Shown: positions 32,842-40,579 of the stretch, one piece after another | Layout: every line of letters begins with the position of its first letter | Numbering within the stretch: the first letter of the stretch is position 1 | Assembly (NCBI GenBank): GCA_034932485.1 | Contig: JAYFOQ010000014.1 | Location: 33,467-97,466 of the forward strand | Direction: 5' to 3' | Source: Gordonibacter sp. | Lineage (GTDB): Bacteria > Actinomycetota > Coriobacteriia > Coriobacteriales > Eggerthellaceae | DNA: 64,000 nucleotides | Notes under the pieces: model-generated | Databases searched by the model: none | Told to the model about the DNA's origin: nothing | What the model saw: the letters and a program-made list of their open reading frames with translations, nothing else | Made by a program: the position numbers and the translations under genes

Positions 32842-34131
32842 ATGCTAGACCTTCGCTTCGTCCGCGAAAACCAGGAAGCAGTCGCCGAGGCCATGCAGAA
32901 CCGTCATGCCTCATGGGATGCTGAGCGCTTTTCTCGGCTAGACGAGACGCGTCGTGCGGCTATAGCGCAGGAGGAGGCGCTGCAGGCAGAGCGCAACGCG
33001 GCATCGAAGTCTATTGGCGCCATGATGGCTGCCGGAGAAAAGGACGATGCTGAAGCAGCTAAGGAACGCGTACGCACCATCAATGATGATATTGCCGCTA
33101 TTGCTGCAGAACGCGAAGCGGCTGATAGTGCTTTGCGCGAAATTCTTCTGAGTACGCCCAATATGCCTGCCGATAGCACGCCGATTGGCGCCAGTGAAGA
33201 CGATAATCCTGAGGTGCGTCGTTGGGGTGCTCCGCGCGACTTTGTTGCGGAAGGCGTGGAAATGAAGCCGCATTGGGATTTGGGCTCCGATTTAGGCATT
33301 ATCGATTTTGAGCGTGCGGTGAAGCTGGCTGCCAGCCGCTTCATTTTGTTGGGAGGCCTAGGAGCGCGTTTGGAGCGTGCGCTTATCAACTTCATGGCAG
33401 ATACACATGCATCGCGCGGTTACAAAGAGTGGTGGTGTCCGGCTATGGCTAATGCCGAGACCCTCACGGGCACAGGTCAGCTGCCGAAGTTTGAGGAAGA
33501 TCTATTTCATACTACGGAGGGTCTGTACCTTATTCCTACCGCGGAGGTGCAGCTTACTAATATCCATGCAGGCGAAGTGCTTGAAGCCGATCGACTGCCG
33601 TTGAAATACTGCGCATTCACTCCTTGCTTTCGCGAAGAAGCGGGTAGCGCGGGTCGTGACACGCGTGGCCTTATTCGCGTGCACCAATTTGACAAGGTTG
33701 AGATGGTGAAATTTGCCAAACCTGAAGAGAGCTTTGACGACCTTGAAGCTATGGTGGTCGATGCTGAGAATATTTTGCAACTATTGGGTCTTCCCTACCG
33801 CGTGATAAGCCTGTGCACGGGCGACATTGGATTCTCTGCTGCCAAGACGTATGATCTCGAGGTCTGGCTTCCATCTTACAATGGCTACAAGGAAATCTCG
33901 TCGTGTTCGAATTGCGTTGATTTCCAAGCGCGTCGCGCGAACATTAAATACCGCGATCCGGCCAACTTTAAGGGTTCACGCTATGTGCATACGTTAAATG
34001 GCTCTGGTTTGGCAGTGGGTCGTACTATGGCTGCCGTTATCGAAAACTACCAACAGGCCGATGGCACCATCAAGGTGCCCGATGTGCTGGTTCCCTATAT
34101 GGGCGGCATCGAAATTATTGCGCCGGAATAA
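32842..34131 (+). CDS. serS: Serine--tRNA ligase
   Basis: [57 protein letters not shown]. Confidence 0.98.
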
Positions 34132-35139
34132 GTGCGCGACAAACAGAAACGCAGGGCGTACGTGGCAACGAAGCGTAATCCGAAACAAGAAGCCAAGGCT
34201 GCCGCCGAAAAGGCATTAGCAACCGCTGCTAAAAAGAAGGCTGCCGCCGATAAAAAGGCTGTAGCTGCGGAAAAAAAGGCTGTAGCTGCGAAGCGGAAAA
34301 CCGCCAACGCAAAAGAAAAAGCGGTTTCAAGGGTAAAGCCTCCTGCTTCCGTGCGCATGCCGGAAAAAAAAGATGTTGAAGTAACGACTTCAGCAGACAA
34401 TAAGGTTTCTCGGCAGAAAGCCTCCAAGCCAGCGAAGCGCGGCCGCTGGCTTCTTTGGGTGATCTTGTCGCTTGTTGCGATGCTGGTTATTGCGGCTGCT
34501 GGGTTTTCGTGGGATCGGTGGTTGCGCTACGACGATGCGGCAGACTTTCAAGGAGAATGGTTTATCGCCGACTCTACGAAGGCAGTCCTTATCGATAAAT
34601 CGGCTATCAATCTGACTGATGACGTGGCGTTTTTGTATCAGATTGATCCTGTTGCCAAAACTATCTCGTTTTCGTTCGGCAATAAAGAGAATGTCGGTCG
34701 CTATCACTTTTCTTCCGATCGAAAGCAGCTGATTATTGTCGAGGGTAGTTCGTACACCACCTTATCCACTCTTTTTGAGGATATAGCTTTGGTGTGGGAA
34801 AACCTCGTGCGTGGGGTGCGCGGCGAGCAGCCCGTTCAACCCGAGGCTGGCAATGGTGTGACGGTGTTTCAGCGAGAGAAGGCCATCGTACCTGCGTCCA
34901 CCGCTGACGTTTCCCCTAACAAGACTCCCGCATCCGATGCTTCTGCGGCAGGTGAGTCTTCTGCGGCATTATCGAGTGGCGAGAGTGCTGCGGGGGGTGC
35001 CTCGTCCGACACTGCTGCCGAAGAAAAAGAAAAGGTTGCCGAGCCAAATAAGACGACCGATCAAAACACGGCTGCTGAACAAAAGCCTGATTCGTCTTCT
35101 CTTCCCGATACCCTGTTTGACAATGTTGTGGATCAATAA
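34132..35139 (+). CDS. Hypothetical bitopic protein: Lys/Ala-rich basic N-terminus, one TM, external beta-rich domain, Ser/Ala/Glu-rich tail
   Basis: Starts immediately after the serS stop; KKAxAA[ED] repeats; TM LLWVILSLVAMLVIAAAGF. Confidence 0.8.
   Translation: MRDKQKRRAYVATKRNPKQEAKAAAEKALATAAKKKAAADKKAVAAEKKAVAAKRKTANAKEKAVSRVKPPASVRMPEKKDVEVTTSADNKVSRQKASKPAKRGRWLLWVILSLVAMLVIAAAGFSWDRWLRYDDAADFQGEWFIADSTKAVLIDKSAINLTDDVAFLYQIDPVAKTISFSFGNKENVGRYHFSSDRKQLIIVEGSSYTTLSTLFEDIALVWENLVRGVRGEQPVQPEAGNGVTVFQREKAIVPASTADVSPNKTPASDASAAGESSAALSSGESAAGGASSDTAAEEKEKVAEPNKTTDQNTAAEQKPDSSSLPDTLFDNVVDQ
34252..34290 (+). repeat. 21-nt-period tandem repeat encoding KKAVAA(E)
   Basis: AAAAAGGCTGTAGCTGCG at 34252 and 34273. 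Confidence 0.85.
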
Positions 35140-35585
35140 TGGCTCTGGTAAACGAGCGCATTACCGTAATGGACGATCGCATATCGTGCGTAGTGGTTCT
35201 TGCGCCGGACACGCCGCACTACACTACCCCTAGCCTGATCGCGCACATCATGGCACTATTTCCTCAACTGCCGCGGCATGCGTGCGTGAATGAGGCGGGA
35301 GATACGTTCGGCGTCGTTATGAATCATACGGCGCTACCGCATTTGTTAGAGCATATGGTAATCGACTTACAAACGCGTGCTGAACCCTTTGATTCTGACA
35401 GTACGTTTGTGGGTACAACGGTCTGGATAGACGAGGCAGCCGGTCGCGCACGTATCGAAGTGAGTTTCACCGACGATTTGGTCGCTTTGCGGGCTTTTCG
35501 CGATGCCACCCACTTTCTGAATGAGGCGGTGGTACTCTATGGTAATGACTTCAGCTCACCTCACATTCGACCAGACGAGCGATAA
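35139..35585 (+). CDS. Stand-alone cyanophycin synthetase N-domain-like protein (putative metallohydrolase)
   Basis: FPQLPRHAC (HxC) and HLLEHMVIDLQ (HxxEH...LQ) match the CphA1 N-domain pattern; coupled to the upstream gene by TAATG. Confidence 0.72.
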   Translation: MALVNERITVMDDRISCVVVLAPDTPHYTTPSLIAHIMALFPQLPRHACVNEAGDTFGVVMNHTALPHLLEHMVIDLQTRAEPFDSDSTFVGTTVWIDEAAGRARIEVSFTDDLVALRAFRDATHFLNEAVVLYGNDFSSPHIRPDER

Positions 35586-36810
35586 AATCGCCGAACGCGT
35601 TGTCAAGATGCGTTCGTCAGCCGTGCGCGATTTGTTTGCAGCAGCTTCTCGTCCGGACATTATTTCGCTTTCAGGCGGTATGCCTGACGTATCACTGCTT
35701 CCTCATTCTGCTATTCGCACTGCTTCGCGCGCTGCGTGTGATGACGAGCGGGCTGCGGCTTTGCAGTATGGATCAACCGATGGTCGCGTGCAGACGAAAA
35801 AGGTATTTTGCGACCTCATGCGCGATATAGGTGTGCGTGCTAAGCCCGAGAATGTGATGATTACCACTGGCGCTCAAGAGGCGCTTGACCTTATAGCGAA
35901 AACTTTCATCAATCCTGGTGATATTATTTTGGCAGAGGGTCCTACCTACTTGGGGGCGTTGCAAGCATTTTCCGCCTACGAGCCCGATGTGCGCTGCATA
36001 TCCTTCGATAACGAAGGTATGCGTATGGATTTGCTGGAAGAAGAACTACGGCGCATTGGTAAGGGAAATCCGCGCTTAAAATTCCTTTACACTATTCCAA
36101 ATTTTCAAAACCCTGGGGGCGTGACCATGGTGCCCGCAAGGCGCAAGCGGCTTTTAGAGTTAGCTCGCGAATATGACTTCATGGTGGTGGAGGACGATCC
36201 GTACGGTCGACTTCGCTATGACGGTGGTCACGTATTGCCATTGAAGGCGCTTTCTGACGATGTTATTTATTTAGGTACGGTTTCGAAAGTGTTCGCACCA
36301 GGTTTGCGCACCGGCTGGATTGTGGCGCCGAAGAGTGTGTTGGCTAAGGTTAATTTGGTAAAGCAGGGTACCGACTTGTGCGGTAGTGCGTTTAATCAAG
36401 TGGTTGTTGAGCACTACTTTAAGGATACTCCGTGGCAGAAAACACTACAGAAATTTATTGAAACGTATCACATTCGTCGCGACGCCATGTTGGCTGCGTT
36501 GGATGAATATTTTCCACCCGAGGCAACATGGACTCATCCCGAGGGTGGGTTCTTCGTTTGGGTAACGCTGCCCTCATATGTTGACACGGGTTCAATGCTC
36601 GCTGAGGCTTTAGAGCGCGGAGTAACGTACACTCCGGGTGATGGCTTTTATCCAGGTGCTTGTGCGGGACAGAATTGCATGCGCATTGCTTTTTGTTTCG
36701 AGAGCCCCGAAAATATTACTGAAGCTGTGAAACGTCTGGCGGCTGTTATAGAGGATCGTCTGGAGCTCTATCGAGCATTTCTTGAAGCGGGAGCCATCAA
36801 GCCCGAGTAA
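35545..36810 (+). CDS. PLP-dependent aminotransferase class I/II (LysN/MocR-like subfamily)
   Basis: SLSGGMP, LQYG, EGPTYLGA, YTIPNFQNPGG, EDDPY, GTVSKVFAPGLRTGW; ATG 35545 lies 6 nt after extended -10 TGGTACTCT. Confidence 0.93.
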   Translation: MTSAHLTFDQTSDKIAERVVKMRSSAVRDLFAAASRPDIISLSGGMPDVSLLPHSAIRTASRAACDDERAAALQYGSTDGRVQTKKVFCDLMRDIGVRAKPENVMITTGAQEALDLIAKTFINPGDIILAEGPTYLGALQAFSAYEPDVRCISFDNEGMRMDLLEEELRRIGKGNPRLKFLYTIPNFQNPGGVTMVPARRKRLLELAREYDFMVVEDDPYGRLRYDGGHVLPLKALSDDVIYLGTVSKVFAPGLRTGWIVAPKSVLAKVNLVKQGTDLCGSAFNQVVVEHYFKDTPWQKTLQKFIETYHIRRDAMLAALDEYFPPEATWTHPEGGFFVWVTLPSYVDTGSMLAEALERGVTYTPGDGFYPGACAGQNCMRIAFCFESPENITEAVKRLAAVIEDRLELYRAFLEAGAIKPE

Positions 36811-36831
36811 CACCCAAGAAGGAGCAGGATT

Positions 36832-37815
36832 ATGAAGGTTGCAGTATTGATGGGCGGCGCTTCGTTTGAGCGTGAGTTCTCCTTGGCAAGCGGTAGAAAT
36901 GTATGTACCGCGCTTGAAGAGGCTGGCCATAAGGTTATACCCCTGGATACTACGTCAGATCTCGTTCCTACGCTGCGCAGCGAGCGTCCCGATGTATGCT
37001 ACAGCGCCTTGCACGGCAAACATGGCGAGGATGGTACTATTCAAAGTCTGCTGGAGTTTGTGGGCATTCCCTTTGTTGGTTCACCTGCAAGTGTGTGCCA
37101 ACGTACCTGGAACAAAGATTCACTCCATTCCGAAATGGCAACTTATCGAGCTATGACCGGCGATGCCCCTATTGCATCGTGGCCGCAGGGTCTCTACATC
37201 GCGCGCGATGCTTTTAAAAATATGGGAGCTGCTACGGCACTCGATTTGGTTGAAGAACGCGTCATTGGAGGCTACCCTGTAGCAGTGAAGCCTGCGCATG
37301 GTGGTTCGGCCATGGGTGTTCATCGGGTCGACTCTATCGATCAGCTGGGTGAGGCTATTTTGGACGCGTTGTCGTTTGACGAGGCGGTTGTTATTGAGCA
37401 GTGGGTCGAGGGTGTCGAAATGGCGGTATCCATTTTGGGTACTGGGTGGGACGCCCACGCTTTGCCTCCGGTGGAGATTGTTCCTAAAAATGGATTCTTC
37501 GGGACTGAAGCTCGTATGGAGCCGGGCGCGGTTGAGTATATCGCGCCTGTTCGGCCAATGTCACTTTCGGAAAACGAAGCTGAAGCTCAGGCTATTCGTG
37601 CCGAGATCGAGCGGGCTGCTCTTGAGGTCTATCGTGCTTACAACGTGCGTGACTTGGCTCGTGTCGACCTTATTTGGGATGGTGCTCAAGCCCGTGTATT
37701 TGAGGTAAATGTATCTCCTGGTATGTCAGAACACTCTCTGTTTGCTGCTGCCTGTGAGGCTTCCGGTCTGTCACTTTCTGGCGTTTTAGATGAATTGGTT
37801 AGGCAGTACGCATAA
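36832..37815 (+). CDS. D-alanine--D-alanine ligase family ATP-grasp enzyme with an atypical omega loop
   Basis: GGASFERE.SL.SG, LHGKHGEDG, KPAHGGS, RVD, EVNVSPG; FFGTEARM where canonical Ddl has YDYxAKY; SD AAGGAG. Confidence 0.9.
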   Translation: MKVAVLMGGASFEREFSLASGRNVCTALEEAGHKVIPLDTTSDLVPTLRSERPDVCYSALHGKHGEDGTIQSLLEFVGIPFVGSPASVCQRTWNKDSLHSEMATYRAMTGDAPIASWPQGLYIARDAFKNMGAATALDLVEERVIGGYPVAVKPAHGGSAMGVHRVDSIDQLGEAILDALSFDEAVVIEQWVEGVEMAVSILGTGWDAHALPPVEIVPKNGFFGTEARMEPGAVEYIAPVRPMSLSENEAEAQAIRAEIERAALEVYRAYNVRDLARVDLIWDGAQARVFEVNVSPGMSEHSLFAAACEASGLSLSGVLDELVRQYA

Positions 37816-38015
37816 GTTCTTTTCTGTGTATCAGTCCTAAGATGCTCTTGCGGTGCCTAGGAAAGGTACGGTAATTTAACGGCTTGGATCAGGGCGAAAG
37901 AAAATCTCTCTAACGGTTCGGTAACCTAATAATAGAGCGCTCGTGTTTTCCTTATTCGTAGCGGGCAGCTGCACCTATAATGGTCGGATAGATAAACGTC
38001 CCTAAGGAGGCAGTT

Positions 38016-38537
38016 ATGGGCAACAAATTCGGAGCTTTTCTCACCGGCGGTTTAGTCGGCGCTGTTATCGCTCTATTGTATGCGCCCCGTTCGGGCCAGG
38101 AGACGCGTGCCCTGGTTACAGATAAGGTGAACACCGCATGGGGCGAGGCGCAGAACCTCGGCGCTCAGGCATCCACCAACGCACAGCAGATGTATCAAGA
38201 TGCTGCCGCCAAAGGCCAGGAGGTTGTGAGCGATCTCTCTGCTAAGGGTCACCAAATGTACGATACCGCCAGCGCACGCGTGCAGGAGGCTGCCGATAAT
38301 ATTAAGCCGGTGTTCTCCGAGAAAAATGATGACTTACGCGAGAAGATTGAAGCCGCGCGTCAGCGTATTGCTTCGCAGGTTGCTAAAAATGCAGAGCAGG
38401 CTCACGAGGCAGTAAGCGATAAGATCCCCGTGGCGGCCGAGGCCACTCAGGATGCGGCCGATACGGCAAAGGATGTTGTCCAGGATGCTACTGAGGTTTT
38501 ACATGCTGCAAACACTTCGAGTGAGAAGTCGGAATAA
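38016..38537 (+). CDS. YtxH-domain protein
   Basis: FLTGGLVGAVIALLYAPRSGQETR signature followed by an amphipathic helical region; SD AAGGAGG. Confidence 0.9.
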   Translation: MGNKFGAFLTGGLVGAVIALLYAPRSGQETRALVTDKVNTAWGEAQNLGAQASTNAQQMYQDAAAKGQEVVSDLSAKGHQMYDTASARVQEAADNIKPVFSEKNDDLREKIEAARQRIASQVAKNAEQAHEAVSDKIPVAAEATQDAADTAKDVVQDATEVLHAANTSSEKSE

Positions 38538-38753
38538 GTCTTATCTGCGTTTTTAGGGGGGAGCTTTAACAGCTTCCTTGAGATAGAGAGTAGTATCACT
38601 TTGTAGTGTATGAAGGTGACGGGCGCGCGATCGGACGGAATGGACCGCCTGGTCGGCGTCTGCCACCTCTTTTAGTCTTTGGTGCGAGGTATTTCGGGTG
38701 GATATAGCGAAGAGAGCGCAATACGCCTGGTACCACGCTCATGTGGGGGAAAC

Positions 38754-39755
38754 ATGACCAAGCATTTAATCACAACTAATGAACTGTCTGGCGTGCGTGT
38801 TGTCGGGGGTAAGAAGGGTACTCGCCGTATTGGTAAGGTACGTCGTTTCGTCTTTCATCCGAAGGAAAAGCGTATCATAGGCTTCATGGTAAAACGCCCT
38901 GACCTGTTATGGATGTTCCGCCGTAAAGATATGTTCGTAGCAATAGATGGCTACGATGTGGTAGATGGGCGTCTGGTGGTGAAGTTGGACTCAGTTGCCA
39001 CGGACTACCGGGCTACCTGCAAGGCCTTGGGCGTAAGTTGGGATGATTGCGTACTCTGGGTTGGACTTCCTGTTATAACCGAAGATGGCGACAATTTGGG
39101 TATTGTGGGTACGGTTGCGTTTGATAATCGTACGGGTACTGTCGAGCATCTTATTACCGATAGCGGTGCGGCTGCCAATGCTCTTTTGGGGAGACGTGAA
39201 ATTCCCGCTGGATTAGTTAAGGGATTTCGCCGAGGTATGGGTGCGGCCCTTGCTCAGGCGGGCTCGGAAGTCCTTGATGGCGACGAAGCCGTGCTGGGTG
39301 CCATTATGGTAGATAACGAGGCCAAGAATCTTACTACCGAGGGTGGTCTGGCGGAAAAGGCAGGAGAGGCTACTGCAGTGGTGGCCGACAAAGCCCAGAC
39401 AGCCATTGATAAAGCGAAGCCTGTTGTAAGTAATGCTGCCAAAGTAACAGGCGAGGCGGTTAATAAAGGAGCCTACGCCACAGGCAAACAAATTGCTGCA
39501 ACTAAGGGCATGTTCTCTGGGTTCAAAGATGAATACAGTAAGGCAAGTGGCAAAAAGCAGTCTGACTCCATGGCTGTCGAGAGGTCGGGGAAGGCCCCCG
39601 CTTCGACCTCGGTAAAGAAGACGTCTACGAAAAAATCTGTTCCCACTCAGAAGACCGCCGCAGTTAAGAAACAGCCTTCTAAGAAGTCTGTTTCTCAGAA
39701 AAACATGTTTTCGGCCTTCAAGGAAGAGTATGACAAAGCCCGTAACGATGATTAG
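38754..39755 (+). CDS. Tandem PRC-barrel protein with a Lys/Ser/Thr-rich C-terminal extension
   Basis: Two PRC-like units (ELSGVRV...IGKV..F; GLPVITEDGDNLGIVGTV.FD); SD GGGGGA before ATG 38754. Confidence 0.82.
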   Translation: MTKHLITTNELSGVRVVGGKKGTRRIGKVRRFVFHPKEKRIIGFMVKRPDLLWMFRRKDMFVAIDGYDVVDGRLVVKLDSVATDYRATCKALGVSWDDCVLWVGLPVITEDGDNLGIVGTVAFDNRTGTVEHLITDSGAAANALLGRREIPAGLVKGFRRGMGAALAQAGSEVLDGDEAVLGAIMVDNEAKNLTTEGGLAEKAGEATAVVADKAQTAIDKAKPVVSNAAKVTGEAVNKGAYATGKQIAATKGMFSGFKDEYSKASGKKQSDSMAVERSGKAPASTSVKKTSTKKSVPTQKTAAVKKQPSKKSVSQKNMFSAFKEEYDKARNDD

Positions 39756-39767
39756 CCCGAGGTGCCT

Positions 39768-40579
39768 ATGACACAAAAGCGCGAGTCCCACCACAGACAC
39801 GAATCTGTCAAAGAAGAACTGCATGAGATACGTGAAGAGTTGCAAGAGAAAGCCCATCAAGAGACCACCATACGAGGTCGCAAGATGGAGAAGGCAGACA
39901 TATTCAAGTTCGTGGGGCTTCTAACTTTTTTCGCGCTCATGATACTCACGTGCGTACTTATATGGCCGCTTCTATCGGATTTATTTCAACCAGGCGGGAT
40001 ACAGCGCATTATTGAGCAGGTTCGCGGCGCAGGCATGATAGGGTTTCTTATCCTCCTGGGTATGCAGTTCTTGCAAATTGTTGTGGCGTTTATTCCTGGC
40101 GAAGTAGTACAGGTGGCTGCAGGCGTGCTGTATGGGCCTTGGATTGGGGCCTTGCTTATTCTTATTGGCTGTATCATTTCTAGTGCATTTATTTTGCGCT
40201 GGTTCATAAGCTGGGGGCACCTTTTGTGCAGGGTATCGTACCCACTAAGTACTTGGAAAAATTTCGTGCATTTGAGAAGTCGGGCAGACTGAATATTGTT
40301 GTATTCATCTTGTTTCTTATCCCCGGGCTGCCAAAAGACGTTTTTACTTATTTGGTTCCGCTTACGGACATAAAGATGAGCACGTTTTTGCTACTGTCCA
40401 ACATCGGACGAATTCCTGGCATCATTATGTCTACATACGCTGCCGATAAGTTCATTGAGGGAAATTATGCGGAGAGCATTATAGTGTTCCTCGTGGTGGG
40501 CGGCATAGGACTTCTTGGCATTATCTTTCAGAAACGTATCATGGCATTTTTAGAGAAGCATAGCTATCACCATAAGTAG
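39768..40579 (+). pseudogene. VTT/TVP38 (DedA superfamily) membrane protein split by a 1-nt frameshift
   Basis: LQIVVAFIPGE.V...AG.LYG in the first frame and FLIPGLPKDVFTYLVPLT in the second; adding one T to the T4 run at 40192-40195 restores a 270-aa ORF. Confidence 0.85.

What the first reader, a model, noticed from the sequence alone, without database searches (positions are those of the whole stretch)
35139..37815. Candidate undescribed peptide/amide pathway: stand-alone CphA N-domain metallohydrolase, PLP aminotransferase and non-canonical Ddl-like ligase
Seen in sequence: the 148-aa ORF carries H47-x-C49 and H68-x-x-E71-H72...LQ (C-to-H spacing 19). Established knowledge: the N-domain of cyanophycin synthetase CphA1 has this HxC...HxxEH zinc-hydrolase site and uses it to cleave cyanophycin into primers. 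Here it is a free protein with no synthetase domains. It also appears to lack the Arg residues that, as I recall, bind polymer carboxylates in CphA1 (FVGTTVW where CphA1 has a GRTR-like stretch). The next two genes are a PLP aminotransferase and an ATP-grasp ligase, and ATP-grasp is one of the two CphA1 ligase folds. Inference: the trio may make and trim a non-standard dipeptide or short amide, possibly for the cell wall. Caveat: the hydrolase is translationally coupled to the serS operon and an internal promoter precedes the aminotransferase, so the linkage could be positional only.
Basis: partly seen in the sequence, partly recalled or inferred. Interest (0 to 1): 0.75.

Follow-up and report, generated by a model that had tools for sequence, protein, structure and literature searches.

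The report
Free-standing cyanophycin-synthetase N-domain hydrolase in Coriobacteriia
This small gene encodes a free-standing copy of the metal-dependent cutting domain otherwise known only inside cyanophycin synthetase; nearly every member of the class Coriobacteriia keeps one although they make no cyanophycin, so its target is unknown, and the two neighbouring genes look like an alanine-controlled cell-wall supply unit, not a new peptide pathway.

Summary
The 148-aa ORF (35139-35585) passes Pfam PF18921. A 37-sequence family profile hits solved CphA1 structures at E 1e-15 to 1e-17, and the AlphaFold model (pLDDT 92) has SuCphA1 as its top PDB match. H47, C49, H68, E71 and H72 are invariant down to 25% identity. 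The cyanophycin-binding residues R70, R100 and E90 are not kept, and the genome has no CphA1 or cyanophycinase.

The protein is single-copy in 278 of 301 Coriobacteriia genomes. Elsewhere in the phylum the domain was found almost only in long CphA-type frames.

The trio belongs to an old five-gene block: Ndom, aminotransferase (AT), Ddl2, YtxH, PRC-barrel. It breaks into three modules. AT-Ddl2 nearly always stay adjacent. Ddl2 is a second Ddl paralogue that never has Lys215 (Met or Arg instead).

Outside Eggerthellaceae, a promoter-like site and a covariation-supported T-box leader (probable specifier GCC, Ala) lie between Ndom and AT. AT-Ddl2 is therefore most likely an alanine-starvation-controlled unit for alanine and D-Ala-D-Ala supply. 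A "make-and-trim" pathway is not supported, though not excluded.

Ndom is best read as an orphan cytoplasmic metallohydrolase acting on a non-cyanophycin substrate.

The parts
35139..35585 (+). Ndom: free-standing homologue of the CphA1 N-domain (148 aa). Predicted His2-Cys metal site H68/H72/C49, general base E71, second-shell H47, F57 and D76.
   Evidence: PF18921 at 33.7 bits against GA 27. Family profile against PDB CphA1: E 8.8e-18 and 7.6e-15. AF2 pLDDT 91.9. Foldseek top hits 7lgq/7lgj/7lg5, TMq 0.66. Motif invariant in 121 close and 30 distant sequences.
35539..36810 (+). Class I/II PLP aminotransferase (AT) of the KAT / 2-aminoadipate-AT / multiple-substrate-AT subgroup. Revised start; overlaps the Ndom 3' end.
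   Evidence: PF00155 E 1e-32. Best PDB relatives 1x0m/3aov (P. horikoshii PH0207) at E 1e-108, 1wst, 2zc0 (alanine:glyoxylate AT) and LysN 2egy. 57-67% identical across the class outside Eggerthellaceae; 50-55% in two Atopobiaceae-like loci.
36832..37815 (+). Ddl2: second D-Ala-D-Ala-ligase paralogue. Catalytic core intact, but omega loop reads EARM instead of EAKY, and Glu148 is Gly.
   Evidence: PF07478 and PF01820. Below the NCBIfam Ddl cut-offs (217.5 against 243). Residue mapping: 44 orthologues have Met (24) or Arg (20) at position 215, never Lys. A canonical Ddl1 sits on another contig.
38016..38537 (+). YtxH-like protein, fourth gene of the conserved block.
   Evidence: PF12732 E 7e-18. 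Follows Ddl2, or Ndom directly, in most loci.
38679..39755 (+). PRC-barrel protein, fifth gene of the conserved block.
   Evidence: PF05239 E 9e-10. Synteny.
34132..35139 (+). Single-pass membrane protein with Lys/Ala-rich and Ser/Ala-rich tails. Its stop overlaps the Ndom start (TAATG). Found only in Eggerthellaceae.
   Evidence: Sequence at the junction. Conserved between serS and Ndom in 8 Eggerthellaceae loci. No homologue in 63 other loci, by phmmer or by a family profile. No Pfam match.
32842..34131 (+). serS, head of the gene string in this family only.
   Evidence: 72-89% identical and immediately upstream in 8 Eggerthellaceae loci. Absent from the neighbourhood in all other families.

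Best explanation
The 148-aa protein is a catalytically competent, cytoplasmic metallohydrolase. It shares an ancestor with the primer-generating N-domain of cyanophycin synthetase 1 but has never been part of a synthetase in this lineage.

Inferred by homology to SuCphA1:
- H68 and H72 on the active-site helix, with C49 from a loop, hold one metal ion. It is Zn2+ in CphA1; Fe2+ is conceivable in these anaerobes.
- E71 acts as the general base.
- H47, F57 and D76 form the second shell.

Because the residues that grip cyanophycin (R70, R100/R102, E90, S60 and the M-domain contacts) are replaced, and the genome has neither CphA1 nor cyanophycinase, its substrate is some other peptide or isopeptide. 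What that substrate is, is not known.

The gene heads an ancestral Coriobacteriia block Ndom | AT-Ddl2 | YtxH-PRC made of three separable modules.

The AT-Ddl2 module is most likely an alanine-starvation-induced unit. In most of the class it carries its own T-box leader with specifier GCC (Ala), preceded in most loci by a promoter-like site. The AT would make L-alanine from pyruvate, and the Lys215-less Ddl paralogue would secure D-Ala-D-Ala (or D-Ala-X) synthesis. A functional tie of Ndom to that module is possible but not required.

In Eggerthellaceae, including this window, the leader was lost. AT-Ddl2 became fused, with overlapping reading frames, to Ndom behind serS.
For: Homology and fold.

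Active site: P42, H47, C49, T64, H68, E71, H72, T94 and W96 are invariant in a 37-sequence alignment at 19-34% identity for the distant members. The same residues hold in 121 close sequences.

Changed substrate residues: alignment to 7lg5, read against PMC9262961.

No cyanophycin genes.

Distribution:
- One short frame per genome in 278/301 class genomes, 107/115 genera.
- In the rest of the phylum all matches but one lie in long frames (mostly 900-1400 aa) scoring 80-148 bits; the exception is a 179-aa frame in G571.
- All of L115-L148 from other phyla are long CphA1 frames.
- The stand-alone proteins and the CphA1 N-domains sit on opposite sides of a single branch, SH-aLRT 86.
- 1922 clusters at 50% identity; all 150 top-scoring ones are short.

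Modules:
- Full block in 33 distinct loci.
- Ndom-YtxH-PRC without AT-Ddl2 in same-order families.
- T-box-AT-Ddl2-YtxH-PRC intact 18-108 kb from Ndom in four genomes.

T-box:
- Found in 41 distinct loci. 98.3% of cells paired, 16 pairs with compensatory change, 0/500 shuffles as good, slid controls 40-53% paired.
- Antiterminator A1 / 7-nt bulge UGGUACC / A2, followed by a terminator hairpin and a U-run.
- GCC plus A is invariant in the Stem I internal loop.
- UGGU matches the A73 of tRNA-Ala.

Ddl2. Ddl1 is the only type found in genomes with a single Ddl, checked by sequence for G001/L066.
Against: - No biochemical datum exists for any stand-alone member. Metal binding and hydrolysis are inferred from residue conservation alone.
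- In CphA1 the M domain contributes to the substrate groove, and the excised N-domain was insoluble until mutated (PMC9262961). A lone domain may therefore need a partner.
- The adjacency of Ndom to AT-Ddl2 has survived very deep divergence (Ndom about 30% identical). In this window the frames overlap, which argues for more than chance linkage.
- All 11 near-complete Ndom-less genomes tested also lack AT and Ddl2. This fits dependence of AT-Ddl2 on Ndom.
- The Ala assignment rests on reading GCC as the specifier in an atypical short Stem I. CCA (Pro, also A73) cannot be excluded from sequence alone.
- Rfam's T-box model does not score the leader even at E 10.
- The AT subgroup is broad in specificity, so its role in making alanine is an inference.
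Confidence: 0.6

Rival explanations
1. Ndom, AT and Ddl2 act together: the AT supplies an unusual amino acid, Ddl2 ligates it to D-Ala (or forms another amide), and Ndom trims or edits the product or the competing normal dipeptide. The logic resembles VanH-VanA-VanX.
For: - Co-directional order Ndom-AT-Ddl2 in 33 distinct loci outside the family and 7 of 9 inside it.
- Overlapping frames in the window.
- Ddl2 lacks Lys215 and varies at Tyr216, the second-substrate wall.
- No near-complete genome was found with AT-Ddl2 but without Ndom.
Against: - Ndom is kept where AT-Ddl2 is absent: G090, G052, G001, L161 and the Ndom-YtxH-PRC loci.
- AT-Ddl2 relocates without Ndom and takes its own leader along.
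- An Ala-type T-box, preceded in most loci by a promoter-like site, separates the genes in most of the class.
- The AT belongs to a broad housekeeping subgroup and is fold type I, so it cannot itself make a D-amino acid.
Confidence: 0.17
2. Ndom works with the other constant neighbours, YtxH and the PRC-barrel protein, in an envelope or stress function. For example, it might process a peptide or protein tail. AT-Ddl2 would then be an unrelated insertion in the block.
For: Ndom-YtxH-PRC adjacency survives loss of AT-Ddl2 in three same-order families, in L066, L113 and in L161. In one such locus (L060) Ndom is followed about 60 nt later by YtxH.
Against: YtxH-PRC stays with AT-Ddl2, not with Ndom, in four genomes where the block is split. 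Three Eggerthellaceae loci lack YtxH-PRC after Ddl2. Neither family has a known function that would suggest a peptide substrate.
Confidence: 0.15
3. Ndom is a non-catalytic metal-binding or scaffold protein, a relic domain kept for binding, not cutting.
For: About 17-20% of CphA1 N-domains lack the active site and still function as anchors (PMC9262961). The domain is small and in CphA1 depends on the M domain for part of its groove.
Against: The general base E71 and all three ligands are invariant across about 150 sequences down to 19% identity, while the surrounding positions vary freely. Conservation of the catalytic glutamate is not needed for binding alone.
Confidence: 0.08

Closest known systems
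N-domain of cyanophycin synthetase 1 (SuCphA1; PDB 7LG5, 7LGJ, 7LGQ, 7TXV; Sharon et al. 2022, PMC9262961)
   Same: - Same Pfam family and same fold (TMq 0.66, rmsd 2.7-3.0 A).
- Same H-x-C...HxxEH metal and catalytic site.
- Equivalents of the second-shell residues H57, F67 and E87.
   Different: - Free-standing protein of 130-290 aa, not the first domain of an ~870-aa synthetase.
- Spacing is Cx18H, not Cx19H.
- R70 becomes Val/Glu, R100 becomes Thr/Glu, E90 becomes Thr/Met, S60 becomes Val. There is a new invariant Trp96.
- The host genomes lack cyanophycin genes.
- It forms a separate clade.
D-alanine--D-alanine ligase DdlB/DdlA and the Van ligases (PDB 2DLN, 4ZQI, 1E4E)
   Same: Ddl2 has both Ddl Pfam domains. 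It has the equivalents of E15, K97, K144, S150, E180, R255, D257, E270, N272, S281 and L282.
   Different: Lys215 is Met or Arg in all 44 orthologues. Tyr216 is Tyr, Met, Thr, Val or Leu. Glu148 is Gln or Gly. It scores below the NCBIfam Ddl cut-offs. To my knowledge every characterised Ddl and Van ligase keeps the Lys; that is recalled, not tested here.
VanH-VanA-VanX operon logic
   Same: A substrate-supplying enzyme, a Ddl-family ligase with an altered omega loop and a metal-dependent hydrolase are encoded side by side.
   Different: There is no sequence relation of Ndom to VanX or of the AT to VanH. The genes are chromosomal, class-wide and ancient. The hydrolase is separable from the pair. 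Regulation is by a T-box, not by VanRS.
Kynurenine / 2-aminoadipate / multiple-substrate aminotransferases (P. horikoshii PH0207 1X0M/3AOV, T. profundus MsAT 1WST, T. litoralis AGT 2ZC0, Thermus LysN 2EGY)
   Same: The AT aligns end to end at E 1e-72 to 1e-108. It keeps the SK(V)F.PG.R PLP-lysine motif.
   Different: No member of this subgroup is known to be paired with a Ddl gene or controlled by an Ala T-box. The substrate was not determined.
T-box riboswitches with truncated Stem I (actinobacterial ileS type; review PMC7583486)
   Same: The leader in relatives has a short Stem I without the elbow-binding platform, Stem II, a IIA/B-like element and Stem III. It also has the T-box sequence with UGGN at the 5' edge of a 7-nt bulge.
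   Different: - It is followed by a terminator hairpin and a U-run, so control looks transcriptional. Truncated Stem I T-boxes are mostly translational.
- It controls an aminotransferase-ddl pair.
- Rfam RF00230 does not detect it.
- It is absent from this window.

Membership tests
CphA1 N-domain family (Pfam PF18921 Cyanophycin_syn) | Sequence match above the curated Pfam threshold | tested here: met
   33.7 bits against GA 27. The family profile hits PDB CphA1 at E 8.8e-18.
CphA1 N-domain family (Pfam PF18921 Cyanophycin_syn) | Same three-dimensional fold | tested here: met
   AF2 pLDDT 91.9. Foldseek top three hits are SuCphA1 chains, prob 1.00, TMq 0.65-0.66.
CphA1 N-domain family (Pfam PF18921 Cyanophycin_syn) | Cx19HxxEH metal and catalytic motif with the H57 equivalent | tested here: met
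   H47, C49, H68, E71 and H72 are invariant. The spacing is x18, one shorter, in all stand-alone members.
Cyanophycin synthetase 1 (TIGR02068) | N-domain fused to ATP-grasp (G) and Mur-ligase (M) domains | tested here: not met
   148-aa ORF. NCBIfam score 27.7 against a cut-off of 850. The genome has only this one PF18921 match.
Cyanophycin-cleaving N-domain (functional class) | Residues that bind the beta-Asp-Arg polymer (R70, S60, E90, R100; M-domain S603/E607) | tested here: not met
   Alignment to 7lg5 gives V60, V50, T79 and T93, with no M domain. The residue list comes from PMC9262961.
Cyanophycin-cleaving N-domain (functional class) | Hydrolysis of cyanophycin segments; bound Zn | not testable with these tools
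   Needs purified protein, ICP-MS and peptide assays.
D-Ala-D-Ala ligase (Ddl) | Ddl N- and C-terminal domains with the ATP/Mg and D-Ala1 residues | tested here: met
   PF01820 and PF07478. E15, K144, S150, R255, D257, E270, N272, S281 and L282 equivalents are present.
D-Ala-D-Ala ligase (Ddl) | Omega-loop Lys215-Tyr216 and a score above the NCBIfam Ddl cut-off | tested here: not met
   Arg-Met in the window. Met or Arg at 215 in 44 orthologues. 217.5 bits against 243 for NF002378.
T-box riboswitch (leader of AT-Ddl2 in relatives) | T-box sequence, antiterminator A1/7-nt bulge/A2 with UGGN at the 5' edge, a competing terminator, and Stem I with a specifier followed by a purine | tested here: met
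   Features compared with PMC7583486. The specifier reading GCC-A is probable, not proven.
T-box riboswitch (leader of AT-Ddl2 in relatives) | Match to Rfam RF00230 | tested here: not met
   No hit at the gathering score in 9 loci, and none at E 10 in two leaders searched alone.
T-box riboswitch (in this window) | Any such leader upstream of AT in the window or other Eggerthellaceae | tested here: not met
   The frames overlap. No T-box motif. No Rfam hit.

The most novel reading that the evidence does not exclude
Coriobacteriia carry a class-wide, chromosomal system that rewires the end of the peptidoglycan precursor when alanine is scarce. Uncharged tRNA-Ala would switch on an aminotransferase and a Lys215-less ligase that makes D-Ala-X, or D-Ala-D-Ala with altered kinetics. 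The free-standing CphA-type metallohydrolase would edit the dipeptide or precursor pool. This would be a housekeeping counterpart of the VanH-VanA-VanX principle, and the first known job for the 'third enzyme' of cyanophycin synthetase outside that synthetase.
Probability: 0.12. Interest if true: 0.85.

Novelty: new variant of a known kind. Interest (0 to 1): 0.55.

Why it matters
The 2022 work on CphA1 concluded that evolution fused three enzymes into one machine, but no free form of the third (N-domain) enzyme has been described. This family supplies that free form. It has hundreds of sequence clusters, one copy in almost every Coriobacteriia genome (including the human-gut genera Gordonibacter and Arabiibacter named), an intact active site and a different predicted substrate.

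Finding its substrate would define a new small metallopeptidase family. It would also show what the CphA1 N-domain was before it was recruited.

Separately, two further testable leads in cell-wall precursor control come out of this work:
- the obligate pairing of an aminotransferase with a Lys215-less Ddl paralogue;
- its control by an Ala-type T-box that Rfam's T-box model does not score.

Tried and rejected
- **Single-sequence PDB search.** phmmer of the ORF against PDB gave only noise such as SnoaB. The family profile was needed.
- **Locus search.** The search for related loci with the mixed alignment A1 failed for lack of a conserved stretch. The narrower A2 worked.
- **LuxS-like lyase.** LuxS uses HxxEH plus Cys. 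Foldseek lists LuxS only at prob 0.28, TM 0.25, so this was rejected.
- **Cyanophycin metabolism in this genome.** No CphA1 and no cyanophycinase.
- **serS linkage as functional.** It is seen only inside Eggerthellaceae.
- **Upstream membrane protein as part of the ancient block.** No homologue outside the family, by phmmer or by a family profile.
- **Internal promoter in the window.** The one consensus match lies inside the revised AT frame, and such matches are not enriched.
- **Known RNA families in the window region and in nine relatives' loci.** None found.
- **Literature.** No paper was found on PF18921, on stand-alone N-domains, or on cyanophycin in Eggerthella.
- **Reference sequence.** The key positions were re-checked against a PDB Ddl alignment and against the genome's own Ddl1.

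Full report
**What is in the window.** Seven co-directional ORFs run from 32842 to 39755:
- serS;
- a 335-aa single-pass membrane protein whose stop overlaps the next start (TAATG);
- the 148-aa ORF of the finding (35139-35585);
- a class I/II aminotransferase (AT);
- a Ddl-family ligase (36832-37815);
- a YtxH-like protein;
- a PRC-barrel protein (Pfam assignments).

Protein conservation with distant AT orthologues begins at residue 9 of the listed AT ORF. The AT therefore starts at 35539 or 35545 and overlaps the end of the small ORF by about 40-47 nt. The one promoter-like match (35560-35588) then lies inside the coding sequence. Such matches are no more frequent here than in shuffled sequence.

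**The small protein is a true homologue of the CphA1 N-domain.**
- It passes the Pfam gathering threshold for PF18921 (33.7 against 27 bits).
- A 37-sequence family profile finds solved cyanophycin synthetases at E 8.8e-18 (7wac) and 7.6e-15 (7lg5).
- An AlphaFold2 model with mean pLDDT 91.9 has three SuCphA1 entries as its best PDB matches: prob 1.00, TMq 0.65-0.66, rmsd 2.7-3.0 A over about 125 columns. CphA2 and TmCphA1 follow.

Sharon et al. (PMC9262961) showed that this domain is a cryptic hydrolase. H79, H83 and C59 hold a metal, E82 is the base, and H57, F67 and E87 support the site. The window protein has the equivalents H68, H72, C49, E71, H47, F57 and D76. The only structural difference is one residue fewer between Cys and the first His (Cx18H).

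These positions are invariant in 121 close sequences. They are also invariant in 30 members of other families that are only 19-34% identical to the window protein.

**It is probably not a cyanophycinase.** The alignment to SuCphA1 shows the polymer-contacting side chains replaced:
- R70 is Val here, and Glu in most of the class;
- S60 is Val;
- E90 is Thr;
- the GFGRTRE stretch reads FVGTTVW, with an invariant Trp that CphA1 lacks.

The M-domain residues that complete the groove in CphA1 are of course absent. The genome (100% complete by the tool's estimate) contains no other PF18921 match and no cyanophycinase.

**Distribution.**
- The short form occurs as exactly one copy in 278 of 301 sampled genomes of the class (236 of 248 high-quality genomes, 107 of 115 genera). 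Named loci identify the class as Coriobacteriia.
- In 400 other genomes of the phylum the domain appears in long frames, mostly 900-1400 aa, scoring 80-148 bits. That is CphA1 and its multidomain relatives. The single exception is a 179-aa frame in one small genome.
- Hits in other phyla are all long CphA1 frames.
- In a maximum-likelihood tree of 150 domain sequences, the 104 stand-alone proteins and the 46 CphA1 domains are separated by a single branch (SH-aLRT 86). The free form is therefore one old lineage, not repeated debris of synthetase genes.
- A library-wide profile search finds 1922 clusters at 50% identity. The 150 best are all short.
- NCBI calls some members 'cyanophycin synthetase family protein'.
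- I found no paper on them.

**Gene neighbourhood.** tblastn of the window's proteins against 65 loci from other families shows the order Ndom-AT-Ddl2-YtxH-PRC in 33 distinct loci. The block behaves as three modules:
- In three families of the window's own order, and in a few other loci, AT-Ddl2 is missing and Ndom is followed directly by YtxH-PRC.
- In four genomes where Ndom stands alone, AT-Ddl2-YtxH-PRC is intact 18-108 kb away.
- In two Atopobiaceae-like genomes AT-Ddl2 sits alone elsewhere.
- AT and Ddl2 are adjacent wherever both exist. One small Eggerthellaceae genome keeps Ddl2 without AT.

Within Eggerthellaceae, serS-membrane protein-Ndom is constant in the window and all eight other loci. 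AT-Ddl2 follows in seven of the nine. The membrane protein has no detectable homologue outside the family.

Of 13 genomes without Ndom, the 11 near-complete ones also lack AT and Ddl2. The two that have AT and Ddl2 are highly fragmented MAGs. This nested pattern fits either a dependence of AT-Ddl2 on Ndom or stepwise loss. With only about three independent lineages it is weak evidence.

**The ligase.**
- The genome has two Ddl genes: a canonical one on another contig (omega loop YESKY) and the window's. Two Ddl genes are the rule in the class, in 22 of 25 genomes.
- Where a single-Ddl genome was checked by sequence (G001/L066), it keeps the canonical type.
- The syntenic paralogue retains the ATP, Mg and first-D-Ala residues.
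- In all 44 orthologues examined it has Met (24) or Arg (20) in place of Lys215 and Gln or Gly in place of Glu148. The Tyr216 position is variable. The mapping was confirmed on a PDB Ddl alignment.
- It falls below the NCBIfam Ddl cut-offs.

This agrees with the separate first-reader note on the same stretch.

**The aminotransferase.** It is an intact enzyme of the kynurenine / 2-aminoadipate / multiple-substrate subgroup. Its best solved relative is P. horikoshii PH0207 at E 1e-108, and the subgroup includes an alanine:glyoxylate transaminase. At 57-67% identity across most of the class it is the most conserved gene of the block.

**A T-box leader in the relatives changes the reading of AT-Ddl2.** Outside Eggerthellaceae, Ndom and AT are separated by 300-400 nt. 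That spacer is strongly conserved. It contains:
- a promoter-like TTGACC...TA...T;
- a short Stem I;
- Stem II and a IIA/B-like element;
- a variable Stem III;
- the sequence AGGUGGUACCGCGA;
- a G+C-rich hairpin followed by a U-run.

On 41 distinct sequences, RNAalifold recovers the classical antiterminator: helix A1 GAUAGG/CCUAUC, the 7-nt bulge UGGUACC, and helix A2 GCGA/UCGC. Overall 98.3% of cells are paired and 16 pairs show compensatory changes. No shuffle of 500 reaches the observed values, and slid controls pair only 40-53%.

These are the defining features of T-box riboswitches as reviewed in PMC7583486. [quoted passage not shown]

The internal loop of Stem I carries an invariant GCC followed by A. 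UGGU predicts a tRNA with A73. Both fit tRNA-Ala; CCA/Pro is the only alternative I cannot exclude.

The leader travels with AT-Ddl2 when that pair is separated from Ndom: L150-L153 are in the alignment. Rfam's T-box model does not score it. The window and the other Eggerthellaceae have no such leader.

**Synthesis.**
- Shown: homology, fold, an invariant active site, altered substrate residues, absence of cyanophycin genes, class-wide single-copy distribution, the modular synteny, the Lys215-less Ddl clade, and the T-box structure.
- Inferred: that Ndom is an active metallohydrolase on a non-cyanophycin peptide or isopeptide; that the T-box senses tRNA-Ala; that the AT therefore makes alanine; and that Ddl2 secures dipeptide synthesis under alanine shortage.

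It is weakened, though, by the separability of Ndom and by the independent control of AT-Ddl2. I rate it at about 0.17. The main reading stands at 0.6.

**Limits.** No coordinates of the model were available for measuring ligand geometry. The phyletic argument rests on few independent events.

Noticed in passing
L070:8552-8801 (also L051, L057, L084 and 37 other loci in alignment A3); not in the window: An Ala-type (specifier GCC) T-box leader lies upstream of the aminotransferase-Ddl2 pair in non-Eggerthellaceae Coriobacteriia. It has a truncated Stem I and a terminator plus U-run. The review read here says truncated Stem I T-boxes are mostly translational. Rfam RF00230 does not detect it even at E 10.
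   Followed up: yes
window 39762-40579 (+): Two overlapping ORFs (176 aa and 117 aa) read like the two halves of one multi-pass membrane protein. By eye it looks like a TVP38/DedA-like protein. This could be a frameshift or a sequencing error.
   Followed up: no
L002 (G000 contig C34) 1480-2424 (-): The genome's canonical Ddl1 (314 aa, omega loop YESKY) lies beside rlmN, about 1 kb from a truncated transposase-like ORF at the end of the locus.
   Followed up: partly
L069 7890-8429 (-) (genome G571, outside the class): This is the only short-frame PF18921 match found elsewhere in the phylum. It is 179 aa, has QKC...HVLEH (Cx20HxxEH, without the HxC histidine), and sits next to a 350-aa protein with an HELAH motif. 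It makes a very long branch in the tree.
   Followed up: partly
L060 7964-8818 (+) and about ten other same-order genomes: In one family of the window's order the Ndom frame is 284-299 aa. It carries a roughly 130-aa C-terminal extension of unknown nature. Most other families instead have a short basic tail (PDV..RLR.LR) that Eggerthellaceae lack.
   Followed up: no
L059, L064/L106, L099, L103: The aminotransferase gene is hit in two frames in several MAG contigs. These could be frameshifts or assembly errors. L059 and L091 also lack Ddl2 after AT.
   Followed up: no
window 38679-39755 (+): The PRC-barrel protein ends in a long Lys/Ala/Ser-rich region. That region contains two copies of an MFSGFKDEYSKA / MFSAFKEEYDKA motif.
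   Followed up: no
L156 7105-8203 (+) (G188): A third kind of Ddl-family gene appears in one same-order genome. Its omega loop is quite different (HQDQ with an insertion) and it is only 28% identical to both window-genome paralogues. It lies next to sensor-kinase-like sequence.
   Followed up: no
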